This document shows positions 1 through 36,288 of a stretch of 40,618 nucleotides of DNA, in pieces. Made by a program: the position numbers and the translations under genes. How positions within the stretch are numbered: the first letter of the stretch is position 1; the number at the start of each line of letters is the position of its first letter. Under the pieces are notes generated by a model. It saw only the letters and a program-made list of their open reading frames with translations. It was not told the DNA's origin and searched no databases. The stretch comes from a virus (Duplodnaviria; Heunggongvirae; Uroviricota; Caudoviricetes): IMG/VR virus record IMGVR_UViG_2718218168_000006; one strand, 5' to 3'.

Positions 1-582
1 TTACCCTATAGGTGCTACTGGCCATTCAATATCCGGTGCAGTTGATGTATCAACACGGTTCAGCAACACCCGATACTTTTTCCAGGCTTCCAGCAACAAG
101 GTTTCTTCCTCCGTTGCGATTTCCAGATCTACAGCATCCTGAAGTGGCGCAATATGCTCACTGGCTACCTGCATCAGGCTGTTTTTTGTTTCTTCCGCCT
201 CCCGGATCCGGAACAGTTTTTCTGCTTCCGTATCCTTCACCCAGGCTGTGCCGTTCCACTTCTGATATTCCCCTCCCGGCGATAACCAGGTAACATTTTC
301 CGGTAACGGACCGAGTTCAGAAATAAATAACGCGTCGCCGGAAGCCACGTCATAAACCGTTTTACCCCGATGATCTTCAACGAGATGCCACGATGCCTCA
401 TCACTGTTGAAAACAGCCACGAAGCCTGCCGGAATATCTGGCGGTGCAATATCGGTACTGTTTGCTGGCAGACCGGTATGAGGCGGAATATATGCGTCAC
501 CTTCACCAATAAATTCATTAGTTCCGGCCAGCAGATTATAAATTTTTATGGTCCGTGGTTGTTCAGTCATTCTGAATGCCAT
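1..582 (-). CDS. tfa: tail fiber assembly protein (lambda Tfa-like)
   Basis: 193 aa ORF starting [20 protein letters not shown], near-identical in pattern to lambda Tfa; its start overlaps the stf stop. Confidence 0.85.
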
Positions 583-4768: not shown

Positions 4769-7700
4769 TCAGCTGATACTGATGCCTGCGGTGGCTTTCT
4801 TCATCACCACAACCAGCAAATCGCTGATACTTGCTGTGGGATACCAGTCATTTACCAGCCATGCTGACACCGAAAACTCCAGCGTCATGTGACCGTGACC
4901 GGCAGGCATATCAATAACGCCACTGTAAATCAGCGTATTATCCAGCGCGGTACGGTTATAAATTTCAGCACCGTTTTTCCGCACTATCAGACGGCATGAG
5001 GAGTAAATATCAGTATGCTCTCTCTCATGTTTAGCGCCGCTGAATGCCACCGCCGGAATAACAATCTGCCGGTCAAACGGCTGATCGTCATAAATCCTGA
5101 CGGTAATGGTCCCTGATGGCCACCGCTCCGGTGCCCGGGAGTCCCGCGGGAAAGCCTTACCCACTGTTTTGACAATATCGCCTTCAATCTGATTGGCTGA
5201 CAGTTTCCCCTTAATCTGACAGTTCTCATTAATCGTGACGTTGTTGAGCGTCCCGGAGTTCGCATTCACACTGCCACTGATATCCGCATTTTTAGCAGTC
5301 AGCTTTCCGTCCGGTGTCAGGGAAAATGCCGGTGGATTTCCACCGCTGGTAATGGTGGGGGCCGTCAGATACTTCAGGAACACGTCGTTCATGAATATCT
5401 GATCGCCCTGACCAACAAACATCGGTTTTGTGTTGCCATTCGCAGGATTAACCATCGCAATCCTGTCCGCCGCCAGCAGCACCTGACTCTGCATGCCGTC
5501 AGGGGTGTTCTCAATACCGGCACCAATACCCGCGATATAAAGGCGTCCGTCCTGCATCTGCTGCAGCTTCACAGCCCACATGCTGTTCAGGTTATTATTT
5601 GTATCAACCTGAACCTTCTGTATCTGCTGAATTGCCGCACTCTGGTCTTCCAGTTTCTTATTGACGGTCTGCGTGATTTCATTGCTGACATCCGTAATGG
5701 ACGTCCTGATTTCAGCCAGGTCAGGCGCAAGCTGACCGTTATCAATCTGCGTCCACAGCTCCTGAGCCAGATGGGTTTTCCCTATCTCGCCTTTGAAAAA
5801 ATCCAGATAGCCGGATGCATCATCACTCGGCTGACCAACAGCCTCCACGAATGCCGATTTGCCAACGGTGTTCACACTGCGAACGTAAAAATAATAATCA
5901 TGGCCCGGCCTGATATTGATACTGGCGGCTATCCAGTACAGCGCCGTGCCAAGATAGCGTGCTGTGGTTTCAACCTGCCTGATATCCGCAATCCGCTTTT
6001 CCGAGAACCAGAACTCAAACTGTACCGTCGGATCATAAACCGCAAGATGCGGCGTGGCGGTTATCTGAAAATAGCCCGGTGTCAGCTCAATCCGAGACGG
6101 CGCTGCCGGTGCGGCAATCCGGAACGATACCGATGCCGGATCGCCCTGCTGTCCCCACGCATTTACCGCCCGGACTGTCAGCCTGTAGTTCCCCAACGCC
6201 AGTTGTGTGAAGCGGTATGTGGTTTCCGTCGTCCTGGCTGTGCTGACCAGCCGCTCACTGCCGTCATCCGCTGTCACGGTCAGACGGAGCAGGAAGCTCA
6301 CGCCCTTCACCACCTTCGGTGTGTCCCAGCGCGCCAGCACCTGATATTCCCCGCTGTCTGCAGTGACTTCGGCGGTCAGATGCTGCACTGCTGGCGGCGT
6401 GACACCATTCACCGTGCCGCTCTGGTCACCGTCAAAGTGCGCCCCGTTATCCACGATGGCCTCTTTTTCCGGCACATGCTGCACGGCAGTGATGGCATAC
6501 GTGCCGTCATCGTTCTCACGGATACTCACACAGCGGAACAGGCGCTGACGCAGCGTCGGCAACTTCAGCCCCCACACGCTGTATCCGGCAACGCCGTCAG
6601 GAACACGGCTCACTTTTACCTTCACGCCGTCGGTGACGGACTGAACCTCCACGCTGACCGGATTGCCACTTCCGTCAACCAGGCTTATCAGCGTGGTACC
6701 GGAGGATGGTAGCGTGATTTCACGGTCGAGCGTCAGCGTCCGGGTCTGGCTGTTTACCGCCAGCACGCGCCCGCCGATGCTGATACCGGCATAGTCATCA
6801 TCACAGATTTCAATAACATCGCCCGGCACATGGCGAAGCCCTTCTGCGCCCACGCTGAAGTCCACGGTCTGCGTTTCCAGCAGCTCTGTTTTAATCAGCC
6901 ACAGCCCGGCGCGGTGTGCCTGCCCCCGGCTGGTACAGCCAAAAGCATCCATCTTCGTGACGTTACGACCGTAACGGGCAATAGCCTGCGTATCCTCCAC
7001 AAGCTCTGTCGCCGTCTCCCAGCCGTTGTTCGGGTCAATCCAGTTCACCTCAACGGCATTATGGCGGTCTTTCAGGGCGCTGAAGCTGTAGCGGAACGGC
7101 GCGCCATCATCCGGCATCACCACATTACTGCGGTTATAGGTCCACACCTTATCCGACGGTCGGTCCTGCACGAACGTCAGCGTCTGCCCGTTCCATACCG
7201 GCATACAGCGCATCGCCGAACAGAAATCACTGAGCACATCCCACGCCTTGCGCTGTGTGGTCAGGTACGCATTACAGGTGATGCGCGGCTCCGTGCCACC
7301 AAAGCCGTCCGGCACTGACTGGTCGCAGTACTGGCCGATGACATACAGCGCCCATTTATCCACATCCGCCGCACCAAGACGTTTCCCCATGCCATAGCGC
7401 GGGTGGGTCAGCATATCCCACAGACACCAGGCCATGTTGTTGCTGTATGCCGGTTTTAACGTTCCGTCCCAGATACCGCTGTATTGTCGCGTCTGCGGGT
7501 TATAGTTCGACGGCACCTGCAGAATGCGCCCGCGAAGATGATAATTACGACTCACCTGCTGGCTGCCGAACTGCTCCGAGTCCACCTGTACGCCGACCAG
7601 TGCCGTGTTCGGGTAGCACTGTTTCACATCGATGATTTCTGTGTATGACGACCAGAGCGTTTTGTTCTGCAGCTGGTCTGTAGTGCTGTCCGGTGTCATC

Positions 7701-25066: not shown

Positions 25067-25141
<75 letters not shown>

Positions 25142-25144
25142 ATA

Positions 25145-25220
<76 letters not shown>

Positions 25221-25222
25221 AC

Positions 25223-25299
25223 TGGACCGCCACCGGGGACTCGAACCTCGCACACTCAACTTAAAGGGTTGACGCTCTTTCCTGATGAGCTAGTGGCGG
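25223..25299 (-). tRNA. atypical tRNA (anticodon loop CCTTTAA, apparent anticodon UUU; C at position 33)
   Basis: 7-bp acceptor stem CCGCCAC/GTGGCGG, T-loop TTCGAGT, encoded CCA; C33 and one T-stem mismatch make identity uncertain. Confidence 0.4.
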
Positions 25300-25300
25300 T

Positions 25301-25376
25301 TGGTGGCCCTTGCTGGATTTGAACCAGCGACCTGGCGATTATGAGTCGCTCGCTCTCACCACTGAGCTAAAGGGCC
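25301..25376 (-). tRNA. tRNA-Ile2/Met (anticodon CAU), ileX/ileZ-like
   Basis: GGCCCTTTAGCTCAGTGGTGAGAGC..CTCATAA..GGTTCAAATCC..AAGGGCC-A-CCA; resembles E. coli ileX. Confidence 0.7.
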
Positions 25377-25521: not shown

Positions 25522-25641
25522 AAGTTGTGTGGCGAAGCGACCACTCTTAACAGATTAAGATAGTTTTTGCGTACGCGTTAGTGATTTTTTCATAATTATC
25601 TGTATCCTGTGGCTATTTCTCTTGCGCAAAGGATGCTTTTG

Positions 25642-26520
25642 ATGACGCAGCAACTCGAAAACATGCCAATAACAGAAATCGAAATTGCCTACGGTGGAGA
25701 GGCATACGCAGATAATCAGATCGACGCGAAAACATTAGGCGAAGCCTTAACCTCTCTTAGTGCCCTGATTGAACACGCCGAAAAAATAATTAATGGCGAA
25801 ACAGCAGAGCCGAAAGTCAACATCAAGGCAACAAAAGAAGGTTCATTTACTTTGCTTGTTGCTGTGATGGGGAGCATAAAAACTATTAACGCCCTTGGCC
25901 TCGTTGCAGGTGGTGGAGTTGCCGCAGGTGGCGTACTCGGGATAATCGAATGGCTCAAAGGGCGTAAAATCAGCTCCATTGTCGTCGATGAACAAAAAGA
26001 TACAGCAGAAATCGAAGTGGATGGTGAGAAGGTTAAATGCAGTAACGACATTCAAAAATTAATAACCAGTCCAATCATCCGAAAAGAACTGGATAAATTA
26101 ATCTATAAACCCCTGCAGACTGAAAAACCATCCACGTTCTCAGTTTCACAGCAGAAGCATAAGGTAGTCAGGGTGACGCAAGCTGAAGCAGTAAGTTTTA
26201 AAACTGCAAAATCCACCTTTGTCGAGAAAACGCACGTAACGACACGCCAAGCTAATGTACATTTTGCTAATGTTCGATTCAAGCAAGGCAAAAGCTGGGA
26301 TATCATCCTGCCAAATGGCGAAGAAGTTAGCGCATCTATGAAAGATGAGGCTTTTCTTGAACGGGTTGAACACAACCAAGCAGCATTCTGTAAGGGTGAT
26401 CTTTTTGTTGTAGAACTGACAGAAACAACAAAAGAAACAAATGGCGCGCTGTCTAAACCACGCTATAGTATTACTAAGGTTATACGCCACAGAGCGGCGG
26501 CAGATAGGAAACTACTTTAA
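25642..26520 (+). CDS. hypothetical protein with central Gly-rich hydrophobic segment (first gene of 3-gene cargo operon)
   Basis: Track ORF 25609..26520; probable ATG at about 25642 (MTQQLENMP..) after AAGGA; contains FTLLVAVMGSIKTINALGLVAGGGVAAGGVLGIIEWL; AT-rich relative to flanking phage genes. Confidence 0.6.
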   Translation: MTQQLENMPITEIEIAYGGEAYADNQIDAKTLGEALTSLSALIEHAEKIINGETAEPKVNIKATKEGSFTLLVAVMGSIKTINALGLVAGGGVAAGGVLGIIEWLKGRKISSIVVDEQKDTAEIEVDGEKVKCSNDIQKLITSPIIRKELDKLIYKPLQTEKPSTFSVSQQKHKVVRVTQAEAVSFKTAKSTFVEKTHVTTRQANVHFANVRFKQGKSWDIILPNGEEVSASMKDEAFLERVEHNQAAFCKGDLFVVELTETTKETNGALSKPRYSITKVIRHRAAADRKLL

Positions 26521-26523
26521 ATC

Positions 26524-26769
26524 ATGTCAATCCTAAGCATTATGCTTTACATCACTGTATTCATGGCTGTCGCAGCGACGGTCAGATATGCTGTGCTTAG
26601 GTTCTTGGTTTGGGTAAAGCCGAATGCGTATATTGAACTAACCTACACCGATCCTGAAGGCAGAACCGCTAAAAGGAAAGTCAGCGTTAGAAACGAAAAT
26701 GACGCAGAAGAGTTGGCGCTACTGCTACGCGAACTCAAAACTCGCAACGAAGCAAGTGCAGGAAGGTGA
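26524..26769 (+). CDS. small membrane protein (1 predicted TM), second gene of cargo operon
   Basis: 81 aa ORF MSILSIMLYITVFMAVAATVRYAVLRFLVW..; starts 3 nt after the upstream stop. Confidence 0.55.
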   Translation: MSILSIMLYITVFMAVAATVRYAVLRFLVWVKPNAYIELTYTDPEGRTAKRKVSVRNENDAEELALLLRELKTRNEASAGR

Positions 26770-27156
26770 ATGGCGAACACTAAATCCTACCTGGCAATGC
26801 AGGCATGGTTTACCACCCTTATCACTGCGGGATTGAATTTCCTTTTTGACTGGCTTCCTCAATTAGCCTTCTTCAAATCATTGGCGCCTGGAGCTGCTGT
26901 CGGCTTATCTCATGTGGTAATTCTTCTTATCGCTTACATAGGTTTGCCTACGCTTAATGATGTAAGAATGAAAAGGGAAATAAAAACGGCCAGAAAATTC
27001 ATCACGAACTGCCTGGCCAACCCTAACCTAACACCAGACCAAATTGCGCACTACAACCAATGTCTTATCGATCTAGACAATAAGCTATTAAAAAACATAA
27101 ATATTCGTATTGATGCTTTATCTGACGCCGAATCGAAAGCTCAAGCAAACGAGTAG
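26770..27156 (+). CDS. small membrane protein (2 predicted TM) with helical C-terminal tail, third gene of cargo operon
   Basis: 128 aa ORF; ATG immediately follows the upstream TGA; convergent with and ending about 13 nt from the Q stop. Confidence 0.55.
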   Translation: MANTKSYLAMQAWFTTLITAGLNFLFDWLPQLAFFKSLAPGAAVGLSHVVILLIAYIGLPTLNDVRMKREIKTARKFITNCLANPNLTPDQIAHYNQCLIDLDNKLLKNINIRIDALSDAESKAQANE

Positions 27157-27169
27157 TAACAGTCATAAC

Positions 27170-27519
27170 TTATGATAGAATCAAGCATATACATCCATCA
27201 ATAAAGCCTAATGCAGTTTGCAGCTCCTTTCTTATAGTTCCATCTGAGCACCTGCGTTTCTTCGCGATTGAGCGTAGAGAAACACCAATAACAAAGTGAG
27301 CTATGAGCAGCTCATATTCCTCTGGTTTATACTTTCGCAACCGAGCCACACAACCGTCTATCATGATGCCTTCATCATCATCACACTGGAGACGTGACTT
27401 TTTGCCATGTGGCAAAAGCCCCTTGAAGCCCGCTGCTATCGGTTGCCAATCGACACCGCTATTTTCTGCTGCAGCCCATGCCCCCAGCGATCTAAAACCT
27501 CATACATATCACGCCCCAT
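27170..27519 (-). pseudogene. Q: late-gene antiterminator Q (QuuD-like), interrupted by a frameshift
   Basis: N-terminal frame MGRDMYEVLDRWG.. (ATG overlapping rusA stop) stops after 27 codons; C-terminal track ORF 27170..27415 is open upstream as ..AWAAAENSGVDWQPIAAGFKGLLP..; fusion at a C-run near 27481-27485 restores the QuuD-like RWGAWAA motif. Confidence 0.75.
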
Positions 27520-27886: not shown

Positions 27887-28870
27887 TCATGCTTTCCACT
27901 TCAGGACACCCGAATTTCTCGCGTGCATTAAAAAACGAATCAGCAACAACAGCTGGCTGCCGTGTTTTTCTTCAAAATCTTTTACCCCGGCGTGCAGTTC
28001 GTTATGACATTTACGGCACAGAGGAATAACAAACAAATCATCAGCCTTTGTTCCCATCCCTCCCAGTCCATGACCAATGATGTGATGCGGATCATCTGCC
28101 TGATTACCGCACGTCATGCATTTCTGCGTTTTTACCCAACGCGTGTATACAGGCATCTCTTCCCGTTGTGGTTTCTGGCGCTGGAGATACTGAGCCGGTG
28201 ACTCCGGATCAACGGCAATGCTGACCACCGTCTTTTCCTGTGGCGGGTTTTGCTGGTGGGCGTGAGGCAGCGGCGCAAGATTTTTTGTGCGCTGCTTCAG
28301 TATGCTGGTGGCGGTCTGCTCTCCCGGTACGATGTCGCTTTCACGGTACATTGAGCGGATTTTTTCCGCACGCAACCCCAGCGAACGACGTAATACCGCT
28401 TCCGGTAGCGCGTCCGCCACCTGATTGCGGACCGCCCACCAGGATAATTCAGCCAGAGATAATTCACGCTCCTGCGTACCGCTTATTGCGTGACCGATGA
28501 CGTCAATCATCCATGCTGACAGGTTTTGATGAGCAAGTTGCTCGAGTGATTCGGATGTCTGGTCACGCAGCTGGTTGTCGCAGTGCCAGCACAACACCAT
28601 TGCGCCGGTACCATAACGGTGAATGACGGTTTCGCTGTGATGATAATCGCCGTGTGGCCACTGGCAGGATTTAATATGGCGCAACAGCCAGTCAGACAAT
28701 GCACCAGCACCACCAGCAGCACGAATCACCCGTGCGTTACTGAAAAACGGCAGCAATGTTTTGTCTTCCACCAGCGGCTGGCGAACGGCAGGAACGACCC
28801 CGGACGGCAGATTACGCATGCTTTTCGGTTCAGGCTCCACCAGCACTCGAGGGTTATGAAATACTTGCAT
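27887..28870 (-). CDS. DUF968-domain protein (YdfU-like)
   Basis: ORF with C-terminal Cys/His-rich region (CMTCGN..HHIIGHG..CRKCHNELH); probable ATG at about 28870 (MQVFHNPRV). Confidence 0.7.
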   Translation of the reverse strand: MQVFHNPRVLVEPEPKSMRNLPSGVVPAVRQPLVEDKTLLPFFSNARVIRAAGGAGALSDWLLRHIKSCQWPHGDYHHSETVIHRYGTGAMVLCWHCDNQLRDQTSESLEQLAHQNLSAWMIDVIGHAISGTQERELSLAELSWWAVRNQVADALPEAVLRRSLGLRAEKIRSMYRESDIVPGEQTATSILKQRTKNLAPLPHAHQQNPPQEKTVVSIAVDPESPAQYLQRQKPQREEMPVYTRWVKTQKCMTCGNQADDPHHIIGHGLGGMGTKADDLFVIPLCRKCHNELHAGVKDFEEKHGSQLLLLIRFLMHARNSGVLKWKA

Positions 28871-28943
28871 GGATTCACGGCCCGGCCTAAGGACCACCAG
28901 CCCAAGTTCCGGTACCAGAACAGGTCGAAGTAATATCCGCACG

Positions 28944-29222
28944 TTACCTCCAGATCCGTTGCTGGTATGTGCGGGATGGGCGCGGTGGGCGTTCGGAATA
29001 AGGGAGCCTGACATAGATTATCCAGTGACGATAATCGAGGCTGAGGGCTTTCTTAACCTCGTATCCGCGCCTGCGGTAACACTGAATTATCCATTCCGCC
29101 TGCTCTTCAGTGCATGGAGGATGCTGGAACCAGTCTGATTTGAATACGTGAAAACGCCGTCCGCGCCTGCTGGCAAAGACGGCAGAATCATTAGAATTGT
29201 GTAATTTGGTATCGTGCGCCAT
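28944..29222 (-). CDS. hypothetical protein
   Basis: ORF in nin-like region; ATG at about 29222 (MAHDTKLHN..); longer track ORF starts with TTG inside a terminator hairpin. Confidence 0.5.
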   Translation of the reverse strand: MAHDTKLHNSNDSAVFASRRGRRFHVFKSDWFQHPPCTEEQAEWIIQCYRRRGYEVKKALSLDYRHWIIYVRLPYSERPPRPSRTYQQRIWR

Positions 29223-29293
29223 CGGTTGTCTCTGCTGGCGCAGCAGGTGCCAGTTGTTCAGGCTGGCGTGCGTATTGTAAACCAGAATGCCAG

Positions 29294-29320
29294 AAAAAAA
29301 CAAAACCCGCCGAAGCGGGT
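29294..29320 (-). terminator. intrinsic terminator downstream of lipoprotein gene
   Basis: acccgc-cgaa-gcgggt hairpin preceded on the plus strand by an A-run (T-run on the minus transcript). Confidence 0.5.
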
Positions 29321-29449
29321 ATGCTAAAACAAACTGAAGGTAATATGCCGGACTTGTAAAGGAACGATAGAATAATTATCGGATTAAATCCTGACTCAAT
29401 CCATAGGGTTTACAGCGTTTTCACTAATAATTTACCGTCCCGCTATACA

Positions 29450-29842
29450 TTACTGCCCAGTTTTAACGAAGTTTTTAAAGGAAACAATTGCCTGATAGGG
29501 GTTTGGTTGACAGCCAAACATATTATCGCAAAAAGGCTTGATGAAAATTCTTGCGGATCCATCTTCATTTGGCATTTTACTCACTTGATAAGCGAGGAAT
29601 GGGCTATTTGGTGAAGGGTTATAAGTGGAAATTAGCGTGTCTGTCGCCGTTTGAATTTTCCATGAGGAATTATTAGCCAACCAGAATTGCGCTCGTTTCC
29701 AATAAAAGTCACATTGCTTTTCATCATTACATGTTAGTGGCTTCATTGCTTCTGCTTTCAACGCTGGATCGACCTTTGCTGCACACCCTCCCAACATTAC
29801 TGTTGCAATCATTACACCTGCGACTAAAACAAGTTTCTTCAT
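29450..29842 (-). CDS. lipoprotein (signal peptide plus lipobox LGGC), cargo gene
   Basis: 130 aa ORF MKKLVLVAGVMIATVMLGGCAAK.. with 4 further Cys; own terminator downstream. Confidence 0.7.
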   Translation of the reverse strand: MKKLVLVAGVMIATVMLGGCAAKVDPALKAEAMKPLTCNDEKQCDFYWKRAQFWLANNSSWKIQTATDTLISTYNPSPNSPFLAYQVSKMPNEDGSARIFIKPFCDNMFGCQPNPYQAIVSFKNFVKTGQ

Positions 29843-29985
29843 CTCCCTGCCCCATCAATAAAAGTTCGGTTCTCTAATAACTAGAGTTAATCAACGGAAA
29901 AAACGCCGAAGCGGGTTAAGTGCGGGTGCGTTGAGGATGCCTGACACATCAGAGGTGGCGAGGGATTTCTCCCCCGCCAGGTCTC

Positions 29986-30141
29986 TTACTCCTCAGGTTC
30001 GTAAGCTGTGAAGACAGCGACCTCCGTCTGGCCGGTTCGGATTCGTACCTCGCAGAGGTCTTTCCTCGTTACCAGTGCCGTCACAATGACGGTAATACAG
30101 ATGACGATCAGGGCGACTAACATCGCCTTTTGCTGCTTCAT
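29986..30141 (-). CDS. hok: Hok/Gef family type I toxin
   Basis: 51 aa MKQQKAMLVALIVICITVIVTALVTRKDLCEVRIRTGQTEVAVFTAYEPEE, near-identical to HokD/RelF as I recall it; AAGGAG RBS. Confidence 0.85.
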   Translation of the reverse strand: MKQQKAMLVALIVICITVIVTALVTRKDLCEVRIRTGQTEVAVFTAYEPEE

Positions 30142-30352
30142 AGCCTGCTTCTCCTTGCCTTTCGGCACGTAAGAGGCTAACCTAGATTTGCCGTTCATAG
30201 ATTGAGCCTCAGATTAATGTTAAGCGTCTTGCCGGACGCGTAATGTTAACTGGGGCTTTTCTCTATCTGCCTTTTGGTGTTCATGCCTGAGACAGATAGC
30301 CTCAAGCACCCGCTGCAATTCTACTTAACTCTCCTTTTCCCGCAAACCGTTT

Positions 30353-30436
30353 TTATCCCCAGCGGCAAATCGAATACACCACCAGCGCCACCGCCAGTGC
30401 GATTCCTACCGTTGTGAATGCTTCAGACCAGGTCAT
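30353..30436 (-). CDS. candidate small hydrophobic peptide (27 aa)
   Basis: ATG with GGAGG about 10 nt upstream; MTWSEAFTTVGIALAVALVVYSICRWG; below the ORF-track size cutoff. Confidence 0.3.
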   Translation of the reverse strand: MTWSEAFTTVGIALAVALVVYSICRWG

Positions 30437-30477
30437 CTTAAAACATCCTCCACGCTTATCAGTCCATTTCGTTTCAG

Positions 30478-30948
30478 CTAATCCATCGCCTTCTCCGGTA
30501 ATTTGCAGTCCGGCTGAGCTTTTTTCAGTTGACTGACCAGTCGTTTAACCCACATTGTTAATTCGCTAACCTGATTACTGGATGCTAGTGGATTGTCAGC
30601 TTTACCCAGAATGGCAGCACAGCAGGCCTCTTTGAGTACCCAATCAACAGCATCTTTCCATGATCCTGTTTCGGCTGGCGGATTTTCACGCTTTACCTGT
30701 TCATAAAAGCGCACGGCTTTAACCAGTCCTTCTGATGTCACCGGGACTGGCGGGGCAGTGAATAAGGCCTGAATCTCATAGCTCGGCCTGTCGTTGCAAT
30801 CCTCTTTTGTCGGTACATATTTCCAGTCACCAACCCACATCTTCTCCTGAAAGTCCGTAACGCTTTTTTTCACATAGCGATATCGCCATGCAACTGGTTT
30901 TGCCTGCCCTACCGTTTCATGCCCTTCCTGATAATTAATCTCGCTCAT
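30478..30948 (-). CDS. hypothetical protein
   Basis: 156 aa ORF; start overlaps the stop of the upstream small ORF. Confidence 0.6.
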   Translation of the reverse strand: MSEINYQEGHETVGQAKPVAWRYRYVKKSVTDFQEKMWVGDWKYVPTKEDCNDRPSYEIQALFTAPPVPVTSEGLVKAVRFYEQVKRENPPAETGSWKDAVDWVLKEACCAAILGKADNPLASSNQVSELTMWVKRLVSQLKKAQPDCKLPEKAMD

Positions 30949-35724: not shown

Positions 35725-36288
35725 TAGCTAACCAACGAAGCTAAGGTTGGTAATTAAGGAGTTCTCCACGGGTGAGGTGGAGTGCGTGTGCCGGACATGG
35801 GTGAGCATCCGGCACTGACAGTTTACTGAAAGGATATGTCCCTGAAAAGTCAGGGCATAACGCGAAAGCGCACGGCGAAATTGGTCTCTCTGTACGGTGT
35901 CGTTAAATTTAGTTCGACCGTGCGCTTCCGGTTGTGGCACTCCGCGAAATGGCGCGGAGGTAAGTATGGCGGGGTTATTCCTTCCCCGTTGAGGACACCG
36001 GGTTGTCAGGTTGACCATACGCTTAAGTGACAACCCCGCTGCAACGCCCTCTGTTATCAATTTTCTGGTGACGTTTGGCGGTATCAGTTTTACTCCGTGA
36101 CTGCTCTGCCGCCCTTTTTAAAGTGAATTTTGTGATGCGGTGAATGCGGCTAAGCGCACGCGGAACAGTTAAAACCAAAAACAGTGTTATGGGTGGATTC
36201 TCTGTATCCGGCGTTAATTGTTAACTGGTTAACGTCACCTGGAGGCACCAGGCACCGCATCACAAAACTCATTGTTGAGGGCGCGATA

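What the first reader, a model, noticed from the sequence alone, without database searches (positions are those of the whole stretch)
29294..29842. Self-contained lipoprotein cargo gene with its own terminator
A 130 aa lipoprotein (lipobox LGGC, four further Cys) sits in the nin-like region followed by a clean intrinsic terminator, the typical layout of a moron. Phage lipoproteins in such positions include superinfection-exclusion factors (Llp, Cor) and serum-resistance factors (Bor); this sequence matches none I know.
Basis: inference. Interest (0 to 1): 0.5.

Follow-up and report, generated by a model that had tools for sequence, protein, structure and literature searches.

The report
Prophage cargo lipoprotein of unknown family
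A small gene slipped into the terminator of a toxin-antitoxin locus of an E. coli lambdoid prophage encodes an exported, lipid-anchored envelope protein. It belongs to a large, uncharacterised family carried by many phages at the sites where phages keep genes that change their host. Its job is untested; the best guess is blocking infection by other phages.

Summary
Window 29450-29842 (minus strand) is a real 130-aa gene with a signal peptide, the lipobox LGGC and four further conserved cysteines. A strong intrinsic terminator follows at 29295-29320.

It is a moron. It is a 596-bp, low-GC cassette that many otherwise collinear E. coli prophages lack, and 250 of 5426 complete E. coli genomes carry it.

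- The terminator is not the gene's own. The cassette sits inside the terminator hairpin of the hok/sok locus. A 13-bp piece of the hairpin is duplicated; the copy next to hok no longer folds, and the intact copy now follows the lipoprotein gene.
- No sigma-70 promoter was found, so read-through from hok or from early phage transcripts is likely.

The protein has no Pfam, NCBIfam, PADLOC or PDB sequence match and is unrelated to Cor, Llp or Bor. It matches PHROG 16082 (function unknown) over its full length and has more than 1,100 relative clusters. Relatives lie between tail genes I and J, inside tail operons, or just downstream of cI-type repressors. Some carry a PDZ domain or an extra N-terminal domain.

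The predicted fold (pLDDT 88) is a helix-grip alpha+beta domain closest to the lipoproteins Flpp3 and BamC-N.

Function is inferred only. The likeliest reading is an outer-membrane superinfection-exclusion or envelope-conversion factor that targets a conserved envelope component.

The parts
29450..29842 (-). Coding sequence of the 130-aa lipoprotein precursor (RefSeq WP_000737635.1, annotated 'hypothetical protein'); the stop codon is 29450-29452
   Evidence: ORF list; RefSeq annotation of an identical locus; full-length match to PHROG 16082, E = 6e-84; purifying selection
29786..29842 (-). Signal peptide, residues 1-19: n-region MKK, a hydrophobic core, and the lipobox LGG preceding Cys20
   Evidence: Read directly from the sequence; the lipobox Cys is invariant in 100 relatives and most have LSGC/LAGC
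29453..29785 (-). Mature domain Cys20-Gln130: two CX5C pairs (C38/C44 and C105/C111) and a helix-grip alpha+beta fold. Residues +2/+3 are Ala-Ala, not Asp, so Lol sorting to the outer membrane is inferred
29843..29903 (-). 61-nt upstream spacer. The 25 nt before the start codon (TTTTATTGATGGGGCAGGGAG) are conserved in Pantoea-type copies and hold the Shine-Dalgarno region. No sigma-70 promoter was detected
   Evidence: Alignment of four contexts; promoter scan found nothing on the minus strand
29321..29449 (-). 129-nt 3' untranslated stretch between the stop codon and the terminator; most E. coli copies carry an extra 69 bp here
   Evidence: Comparison of 49 IMG/VR copies
29295..29320 (-). Intrinsic terminator: hairpin 29305-29320 plus T-run. 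Its sequence and downstream flank are those of the hok terminator in empty-site prophages
29308..29320 (.). Distal copy of the 13-bp direct repeat CGCCGAAGCGGGT (plus-strand reading), part of the intact terminator hairpin
   Evidence: Alignment with the empty site L003 and the window sequence
29904..29916 (.). hok-proximal copy of the same 13-bp repeat. Here the hairpin is truncated (GGCG followed by TTTTTT) and is not predicted to fold stably
   Evidence: -4.5 kcal/mol, z = 0.08; the same junction occurs in 48 of 49 copies
29308..29903 (-). The 596-bp inserted cassette (one repeat copy counted), GC about 39-42%
   Evidence: Empty-site prophages span 1005 bp where the window spans 1601 bp; alignment; composition profile
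29986..30311 (-). Upstream neighbour: hokD toxin gene (29986-30141) with its sok antisense/leader region (30136-30311). Its mRNA normally ends at the terminator that the cassette split
   Evidence: RefSeq annotation; Rfam sok RF01794, 112 bits

Best explanation
What it is (about 0.9 for this part). A 596-bp, low-GC moron recombined into the terminator hairpin of the prophage's hok/sok locus, probably through the short identical GC-rich UUCG hairpin sequence. It encodes a Sec/Lgt/LspA-processed lipoprotein. [quoted passage not shown] It folds as a compact helix-grip alpha+beta domain, probably stapled by two local CX5C disulfides. It belongs to a large, uncharacterised, mostly phage-borne family (PHROG 16082).

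How it is expressed (inferred). The hok-side terminator copy is crippled and no promoter is visible. The gene is therefore probably transcribed as a 3' extension of the constitutive hok mRNA in lysogens, and by antiterminated early-right transcription after induction. Transcripts would end at the regenerated terminator at 29295-29320.

What it does (inferred; the confidence given applies to this step). It is a lysogenic-conversion factor acting at the envelope. The most likely activity is superinfection exclusion: from the periplasmic side it binds a conserved outer-membrane or periplasmic component and blocks adsorption or the DNA-entry step of incoming phages. It might also block colicins that use the same route. 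Its sequence stays conserved across phages whose J receptor-binding tips are unrelated, so the target is more likely a conserved envelope component or a post-adsorption step than the phage's own variable receptor.
For: Gene and lipoprotein features.

Moron status:
- Empty-site alleles, and alternative cargo (rem, or another insert) at the same hok/DUF968 junction.
- A GC dip.
- 250 of 5426 complete E. coli genomes carry the full cassette.
- It is present in two induced E. coli phages.

Insertion into the hok terminator.

Size of the family: 1142 clusters at 50% identity with E <= 1e-3.

The family sits at classic lysogenic-conversion or exclusion sites in unrelated phages:
- Between tail genes I and J in Pantoea-type prophages L063 and L064, with its own terminator.
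- Just upstream of I/J, beside other lipoprotein genes, in L061 and L062.
- Inside a tail operon, upstream of the DUF2460/BR0599/host-specificity genes, in L066.
- On the same strand directly downstream of cI/LexA-type HTH or S24 repressors in L129, L130, L133, L134, L136 and L140. It lies next to integrase or recombinase genes in L131 and L132.

These positions parallel cor and lom, HK97 gene 15, and rex/sieB (HK97 gp15 position and Cor function as stated in PMC3594210).

Against: - There is no experimental datum of any kind for this family.
- There is no sequence or fold relation to any proven exclusion protein: the Cor hit is signal peptide only, PADLOC gives nothing, and there is no PDB sequence hit.
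- Known receptor-blocking lipoproteins are small, fast-evolving and matched to the phage's receptor. This family is conserved across alpha-, beta- and gamma-proteobacterial phages.
- It stays 74-83% identical between phages whose J proteins are about 29% identical with unalignable C-termini.
- Some members are fused to HtrA-type PDZ domains, which suggests a more general periplasmic protein-binding role.
- Sites next to J also hold non-exclusion morons such as lom.
- Expression in the lysogen is unproven: no promoter was found.
Confidence: 0.35

Rival explanations
1. Host-fitness or virulence conversion factor of the Bor/Iss/Lom type. The outer-membrane lipoprotein would alter envelope properties (serum/complement resistance, adhesion, stress tolerance) and benefit the lysogen without affecting phages.
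For: - Same general kind of gene as lambda bor, a moron-encoded outer-membrane lipoprotein (cited in PMC3594210).
- The closest fold match, Flpp3, is described as a Francisella lipoprotein virulence factor (abstract).
- Carriers include ExPEC ST131, APEC and ETEC strains.
- Sites next to J also hold lom.
Against: - No Lambda_Bor or other Pfam match.
- The family is spread through phages of environmental alpha- and beta-proteobacteria and plant-associated Pantoea, where serum resistance is irrelevant.
- The APEC prophage serum-resistance gene orf10 is a different gene.
Confidence: 0.2
2. Periplasmic inhibitor or immunity protein. It would bind and neutralise an envelope-acting enzyme or toxin, such as a peptidoglycan hydrolase, a T6SS or bacteriocin effector, or a protease. 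That would protect the lysogen from competitors or from lysis from without.
For: - Small, disulfide-stapled, lipid-anchored periplasmic domains are typical of such inhibitors (established knowledge).
- Strong conservation across hosts fits a conserved enzymatic target.
- Fusion of the domain to HtrA-type PDZ domains in 11 of 100 sampled relatives points to periplasmic protein or peptide binding.
- One chromosomal relative lies next to a Peptidase_M91 effector-like gene.
Against: - No cognate toxin gene lies next to the E. coli, Pantoea-type or other phage copies.
Confidence: 0.15
3. Lytic-cycle helper rather than a lysogeny gene. It would be made from antiterminated early transcripts and would modify the envelope during infection, for example by masking receptors on debris so that progeny are not lost (as proposed for T5 Llp), or by assisting envelope disruption.
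For: - Same strand as the whole early-right/nin operon, and no promoter of its own.
- Tail-operon positions in other phages are transcribed late.
Against: - Many relatives sit directly behind cI-type repressors, which is a lysogeny-expressed position.
- The gene is dispensable: most related prophages lack it.
- The window has a separate complete lysis cassette with Rz/Rz1.
Confidence: 0.1
4. Decaying passenger with no current function in E. coli.
For: - No detectable promoter.
- One copy is disrupted by an IS element 3 nt before the ATG.
- Truncated or frameshifted versions exist (P0005, P0011, P0013).
Against: - Purifying selection: pN 0.12-0.16 with saturated synonymous sites.
- 98-100% conserved intact ORFs in about 250 complete genomes and about 50 viral contigs.
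- The Shine-Dalgarno leader is conserved across genera.
Confidence: 0.05

Closest known systems
Cor (phi80/N15/HK022/T1; PHROG 1119), outer-membrane lipoprotein that inactivates FhuA
   Same: Prophage moron encoding a small exported lipoprotein. Relatives of the present gene sit next to the tail-tip gene J. Presumed action is at the outer membrane.
   Different: No homology: the PHROG 1119 hit has E = 0.007 and covers residues 1-44, the signal peptide only. The mature domain is about 110 aa against a 78-position Cor profile. The protein is conserved independently of the J tip. No exclusion has been shown.
Llp of phage T5, lipoprotein that binds the periplasmic side of FhuA
   Same: Phage-encoded lipoprotein with a disulfide, anchored in the inner leaflet of the outer membrane. 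This serves as the mechanistic model for the best explanation (bioRxiv 10.64898/2026.03.26.714494 abstract).
Bor/Iss (lambda bor; Pfam Lambda_Bor), serum-resistance outer-membrane lipoprotein
   Same: Moron-encoded outer-membrane lipoprotein of lambdoid prophages, of similar size.
   Different: No Pfam Lambda_Bor match. Different locus: bor lies beside the lysis genes. Host range extends to non-pathogens.
HK97 gp15, the archetypal moron and an inner-membrane superinfection-exclusion protein
   Same: A moron with its own terminator inserted into an operon. Relative P0161 lies inside a tail operon, the kind of site where HK97 gene 15 lies (between the tail chaperone and tape-measure genes; PMC3594210). 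The exclusion acts without blocking the receptor.
   Different: gp15 is a YebO-like inner-membrane protein, not a lipoprotein. There is no sequence relation.
Flpp3 (DUF3568) of Francisella and the N-terminal domain of BamC
PHROG 16082 (and, weakly, PHROG 4186)
   Same: Full-length profile match, E = 6e-84, positions 1-130 of 130. All distant viral relatives tested also hit it.
   Different: These are only computed clusters annotated 'unknown function', so they carry no biology to transfer.

Membership tests
Moron (as defined in PMC3594210 after Juhala et al. 2000) | Extra DNA relative to otherwise collinear related phages | tested here: met
   Empty-site prophages (e.g. L003) join the hok terminator directly to the 92-aa ORF/DUF968 flank. 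The 596 bp are absent there, and other prophages carry rem or another insert at the same point.
Moron (as defined in PMC3594210 after Juhala et al. 2000) | [quoted passage not shown] | tested here: met
   GC is 0.385-0.425 over 29300-29900 against 0.51-0.57 on both sides.
Moron (as defined in PMC3594210 after Juhala et al. 2000) | Own terminator | tested here: inconclusive
   A strong terminator follows the gene. Its sequence and flank are those of the resident hok terminator, regenerated by the insertion. The Pantoea-type copy L063 does have a terminator of its own.
Moron (as defined in PMC3594210 after Juhala et al. 2000) | Own promoter | tested here: not met
   There is no sigma-70-like site on the minus strand in 28800-30600. 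By eye, L062 and L063 have a TGATAGGAT extended -10 candidate where the window has TAGAGA. A weak or non-sigma-70 promoter cannot be excluded.
Moron (as defined in PMC3594210 after Juhala et al. 2000) | Expressed from the repressed prophage | not testable with these tools
   Needs RNA-seq, Northern blots or proteomics of a lysogen.
Bacterial lipoprotein (Lgt/LspA/Lnt substrate) | N-terminal signal peptide ending in a lipobox with an invariant Cys | tested here: met
   The precursor starts MKK, then 13 hydrophobic residues, then L-G-G-C20. The Cys is invariant and LSGC/LAGC are the commonest forms in relatives.
Bacterial lipoprotein (Lgt/LspA/Lnt substrate) | Actual lipidation, and outer-membrane sorting | not testable with these tools
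   Ala at +2/+3 (no Asp) predicts Lol-dependent outer-membrane sorting by the E. coli +2 rule. This is inference only.
Cor superinfection-exclusion family (PHROG 1119) | Sequence similarity over the mature protein | tested here: not met
   E = 0.0071, residues 1-44 against profile positions 1-39 only.
Bor/Iss (Pfam Lambda_Bor) | Match to the family profile | tested here: not met
   The Pfam scan at E <= 1 returned only a chance collagen C4 hit.
T5 Llp | Sequence or fold similarity to Llp | tested here: not met
Flpp3 / DUF3568 | Profile match and shared fold | tested here: inconclusive
o-spanin (Rz1-like) | Lipoprotein gene embedded in or adjacent to Rz within the lysis cassette | tested here: not met
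   The gene lies about 6 kb from the lysis genes, which have their own Rz/Rz1. The PHROG 812 hit has E = 0.22 and covers the signal peptide only.
PHROG 16082 | Full-length profile match | tested here: met
   E = 6.2e-84, positions 1-130 of 130.
Known anti-phage defence systems (PADLOC-DB 2.0) | Match to any model | tested here: not met
   No hit at E <= 1.

The most novel reading that the evidence does not exclude
The PHROG 16082 domain would define a widespread, so far unrecognised class of phage lysogenic-conversion lipoproteins. Three forms were seen: stand-alone, fused behind an extra N-terminal domain, or fused to a PDZ domain. In this reading they act on a conserved envelope machine or a post-adsorption entry step rather than on a specific receptor, and so give broad, heterotypic protection. 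The E. coli copy would in addition be expressed by hijacking the hok toxin mRNA, whose terminator it destroyed on insertion. That would couple a toxin-antitoxin transcript to a conversion gene.
Probability: 0.2. Interest if true: 0.65.

Novelty: new variant of a known kind. Interest (0 to 1): 0.42.

Why it matters
Moron-encoded envelope proteins are a main route by which prophages change host phenotype, including phage susceptibility, colicin sensitivity and serum resistance. Only a handful of lipoprotein families (Cor, Llp, Bor, Ltp) have a known function.

This gene represents a family with more than a thousand sequence clusters. It recurs at the canonical conversion sites of unrelated phages, yet has no annotation in Pfam, NCBIfam, PADLOC or the PDB.

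It is carried by about 5% of complete E. coli genomes, including ST131, APEC and ETEC strains. A defined function could therefore matter for phage-therapy host range and for prophage-driven strain differences.

The insertion into the hok terminator is also a clean, base-resolved example of how a moron is acquired at a short hairpin homology. It shows how a moron may borrow a neighbour's transcription.

Tried and rejected
1. Known-family assignment. Pfam, NCBIfam and PADLOC scans, a PDB sequence search and a BFVD Foldseek search gave nothing significant. The Cor and Rz-like PHROG hits cover the signal peptide only.

2. BamE-like N-terminal domain. By eye, the extra N-terminal domain of the 250-aa relatives looked BamE/SmpA-like (motif NGMT..A..ILG.PP). 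Pfam gave no hit and a 5-sequence profile found nothing in the PDB. I dropped it as unsupported.

3. Matching to the phage's own receptor-binding protein. The lipoproteins are 74-83% identical while the J proteins are about 29% identical with unrelated C-termini. Simple own-receptor masking is therefore disfavoured.

4. The APEC prophage serum-resistance gene orf10 (PMC7724020). Its deletion-primer sequence is absent from the window, so it is a different gene.

5. Reference genomes. Two genome-contig scans gave no close relative and only two distant ones in MAGs. The word-indexed protein search with a profile added little.

6. The AFDB50 fold library was unavailable.

7. A literature search by accession found nothing.

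8. Deposited phages. Only two induced E. coli phages carry the gene, annotated 'hypothetical'.

Full report
**1. The observation**

The region holds a 130-aa ORF on the minus strand, 29450..29842. Its N-terminus, MKKLVLVAGVMIATVMLGGC, is a textbook lipoprotein signal peptide: a positive n-region, a hydrophobic core and the lipobox L-G-G-C20. Four more cysteines follow, at positions 38, 44, 105 and 111.

On the same strand, 129 nt after the stop codon, lies a GC-rich hairpin with a UUCG loop and a T-run (29320..29295). It folds at -13.1 kcal/mol (z = -4.06), and none of 200 shuffles folds as well.

The gene is real and under constraint. Close homologues from Enterobacter, Pantoea and Phytobacter share 67-83% identity. 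Against three of them, non-synonymous divergence is 0.12-0.16 while synonymous sites are saturated.

**2. Setting**

An identical locus in RefSeq (E. coli O177:H21) annotates the gene as a hypothetical protein, WP_000737635.1. The gene order there is that of a Qin-like lambdoid prophage. It runs from dicB/ydfABC through the cI/cro-like switch, replication genes, DUF977, a methylase, small ORFs and hokD. Then come this gene, a 92-aa ORF, DUF968 (ydfU), RusA, Q, tRNAs and the lysis genes.

Rfam finds the sok region at 30136-30311 and DicF at 36063-36114. Pfam confirms DUF968 and a Q-type antiterminator fragment.

The full 701-bp region occurs in 250 of 5426 complete E. coli genomes, nearly always chromosomal. 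Carriers include ST131, APEC and ETEC strains. It also occurs in two induced E. coli phages and in about 55 IMG/VR contigs at 94-100% protein identity.

**3. It is a moron, with base-resolved ends**

With a 1.6-kb query, many prophages match both flanks but span 1005 bp instead of 1601 bp. These are empty sites (L003). Other prophages carry rem (L005) or an unannotated insert (L004) at the same junction.

The alignment shows the junctions. In the empty site the hok terminator reads AACCCGCTTCGGCGGGTTTTGTTTTTTCC and runs straight into the flank of the 92-aa ORF. In the window the left part of that hairpin, up to GGCG, remains next to hok (29904-29916) and is followed by cassette DNA. The complete hairpin with its original downstream flank reappears after the lipoprotein gene (29305-29320).

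The insert is thus 596 bp, bounded by a 13-bp direct repeat (CGCCGAAGCGGGT on the plus strand). Its GC content is 39-42% against 50-57% outside.

The hok-proximal remnant is not predicted to fold stably (-4.5 kcal/mol, z = 0.08). The same junction is found in 48 of 49 independent copies; the exception has an IS element 3 nt before the ATG.

In a Pantoea-type prophage (L062) the homologue is preceded by a hairpin of the same sequence, ACCCGCTTCGGCGGG. This fits acquisition by recombination at short, identical terminator hairpins, which is an inference.

**4. Expression signals**

No sigma-70-like promoter is found on the coding strand. The 25 nt before the start codon, including a GGGG/AGGGA Shine-Dalgarno region, are conserved between the E. 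coli copy and three Pantoea-type copies. Further upstream there is no similarity.

By eye, L062 and L063 have a TGATAGGAT extended -10 candidate, where the window reads TAGAGA and lacks the final T. L063 has its own 8-bp terminator immediately after the stop codon.

So the family travels as a promoter-poor gene with a terminator. In E. coli the terminator in use is the regenerated hok one.

The gene follows hok on the same strand, and the hok terminator copy in front of it is crippled. My inference is co-transcription with hok in lysogens, plus antiterminated early transcription after induction. This is testable but not shown.

**5. The protein and its family**

Pfam, NCBIfam, PADLOC and the PDB sequence search give nothing significant. 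PHROGs gives a full-length match to phrog_16082 (function unknown, E = 6e-84) and a weaker one to phrog_4186. The Cor and Rz-like hits cover only the signal peptide.

A profile search of 1.84 billion cluster representatives finds 1142 relatives at E <= 1e-3 and 531 at E <= 1e-10. Almost all are lipobox proteins of 125-140 aa. C20, C38, C44 and C105 are invariant. W48, T73, I99 and C111 are nearly invariant in both alignments, and A51 and W54 also in the 100-sequence one.

Eleven of 100 sampled members carry a C-terminal HtrA-type PDZ domain. Another set of about 250-aa phage proteins has the domain at the C-terminus, behind an unrelated N-terminal domain and a charged linker.

With a 17-sequence alignment, AlphaFold2 gives mean pLDDT 88.5, and about 96 over the mature domain. 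The order of elements is helix, short strand, long helix, four-stranded antiparallel sheet, C-terminal helix.

The two CX5C pairs probably form local disulfides. Disulfides would fit a periplasmic location. Ala at +2 predicts outer-membrane sorting, also an inference.

**6. Where relatives sit**

The close subfamily is absent from the 185,579 species-representative genomes but present in viral contigs.

- In Pantoea-type prophages L063 and L064 the gene lies exactly between tail-assembly gene I and the tip gene J.
- In L061 and L062 it lies just upstream of I and J, followed by a second, unrelated lipoprotein gene.
- A 31%-identical member (P0161) lies inside a tail operon, upstream of the DUF2460/BR0599/host-specificity genes.
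- A 42%-identical member (P0080) lies at the edge of an early region with ERF/YqaJ recombination genes.
- One stand-alone member (L129) and four long forms (L130, L133, L134, L136) lie on the same strand directly downstream of HTH or HTH-S24 cI/LexA-type regulators. L140 lies downstream of an HTH-type protein similar to the L133 repressor by BLASTP. L131 and L132 lie next to recombinase or integrase genes.

All tested relatives hit phrog_16082.

These are the positions where phages keep lysogeny-expressed accessory genes. By my own knowledge, lom and cor lie by the tail-fibre genes, and rex and sieB lie by the repressor. HK97 gene 15 lies between the tail chaperone and tape-measure genes (PMC3594210).

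**7. Mechanism**

Nothing experimental exists for this family. No paper cites the accession. The APEC prophage serum-resistance gene orf10 is a different gene.

Several facts point the same way. The protein is an exported outer-membrane lipoprotein, it is dispensable cargo, and it recurs at conversion sites in unrelated phages. From these I take an envelope-acting lysogenic-conversion factor as the best reading. Superinfection exclusion is the single most likely activity (about 0.35).

The lipoprotein is 74-83% identical between phages whose J proteins are about 29% identical with unrelated C-termini. The family also spans alpha-, beta- and gamma-proteobacterial phages. A conserved envelope component or a post-adsorption step is therefore a more plausible target than the phage's own receptor.

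The rivals cannot be separated with sequence tools. They are a Bor-like host-fitness factor (0.2), a periplasmic inhibitor or immunity protein (0.15; the PDZ fusions lean this way), a lytic-cycle helper (0.1) and a decaying passenger (0.05).

**8. Comparison and novelty**

The gene works like the known phage outer-membrane lipoprotein morons (Cor, Llp, Bor) in layout. It is a member of none of them: the profile tests failed. It belongs only to a computed, unannotated PHROG. I rate it a new variant of a known kind.

Interest is moderate. A specialist would not be surprised that a prophage carries an unknown lipoprotein. More notable are the size of the family, its recurrent placement, its domain fusions and the insertion into the hok terminator. 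All are directly testable.

Noticed in passing
window 29904-29916 and 29308-29320: The cassette is bounded by a 13-bp direct repeat that is part of the hok terminator hairpin. The copy next to hok has lost its 3' stem and is not predicted to fold stably. hok mRNA may therefore now run about 600 nt further, which could also disturb the 3'-end-dependent control of hok translation.
   Followed up: partly
window 29321-29449 (3' UTR of the lipoprotein gene): Most E. coli copies (about 44 of 49 IMG/VR loci) have an extra 69 bp here (CACCCAATGTGGACTAAG...GAAATC) containing a short inverted repeat. The window has the rarer short form. Its nature is unknown; it could be a small mobile element or a remnant of the donor context.
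   Followed up: no
window 25609-27156 (+ strand): Three genes of unknown function (303, 81 and 128 aa; the last two are hydrophobic) lie opposite in orientation to the surrounding phage genes, between the Q antiterminator fragment and the tRNA genes. They have no Pfam match. The O177:H21 prophage, which is identical around the lipoprotein gene, has a full-length Q here instead. This looks like a second cargo insertion, possibly a defence or membrane module.
   Followed up: partly
window 27170-27415 (-): The Q antiterminator ORF is only 81 aa and matches positions 36-112 of the 118-position Pfam Phage_antitermQ model. Either Q is N-terminally truncated or it uses an unusual start. If truncated, late-gene expression of this prophage may be impaired.
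   Followed up: no
L130, L131, L132, L133, L134, L136, L140 (about 5540-6350 in each locus): About 250-aa phage lipoproteins carry the same domain at the C-terminus, behind a conserved N-terminal domain (NGMT..A..ILG.PPT...WRRGNAQ.Y.GT) and a charged, probably coiled-coil, linker. Five of the seven lie just downstream of an HTH-type regulator on the same strand. Three of those (L130, L133, L136) are cI/LexA-type with a Peptidase_S24 domain. The N-terminal domain has no Pfam or PDB sequence match.
   Followed up: partly
Representatives P0032, P0037, P0079, P0103 and others (alignment A4): Eleven of 100 sampled family members are about 230-aa lipoproteins with a C-terminal HtrA-type PDZ domain. 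This architecture (unknown lipoprotein domain plus PDZ) appears undescribed.
   Followed up: partly
L061 8374-8784 and L062 8332-8679: In two Pantoea/Enterobacterales-type prophages the homologue is immediately followed by, and overlaps, a second and unrelated lipoprotein gene (PHROG 890 'lipoprotein' and PHROG 914 respectively), just upstream of tail genes I and J. This is a small lipoprotein cargo cluster.
   Followed up: no
L007 about 1-331: One E. coli copy has an IS-type transposase gene inserted 3 nt upstream of the lipoprotein start codon, replacing the conserved leader.
   Followed up: no
window 41-239 (-), 25070-25376 (-), 36063-36114 (+): Rfam matches elsewhere in the window: IS009 RNA, four tRNA genes downstream of Q, and DicF sRNA. 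All are consistent with a Qin/Rac-like lambdoid prophage.
   Followed up: no
protein cluster 1: In the 90%-identity protein collection this lipoprotein shares a cluster (1137 members) with Hok toxins. This is probably a clustering artefact caused by a partial or fused representative (P0013). It explains why the exact protein did not appear as its own hit in the first homology search.
   Followed up: no
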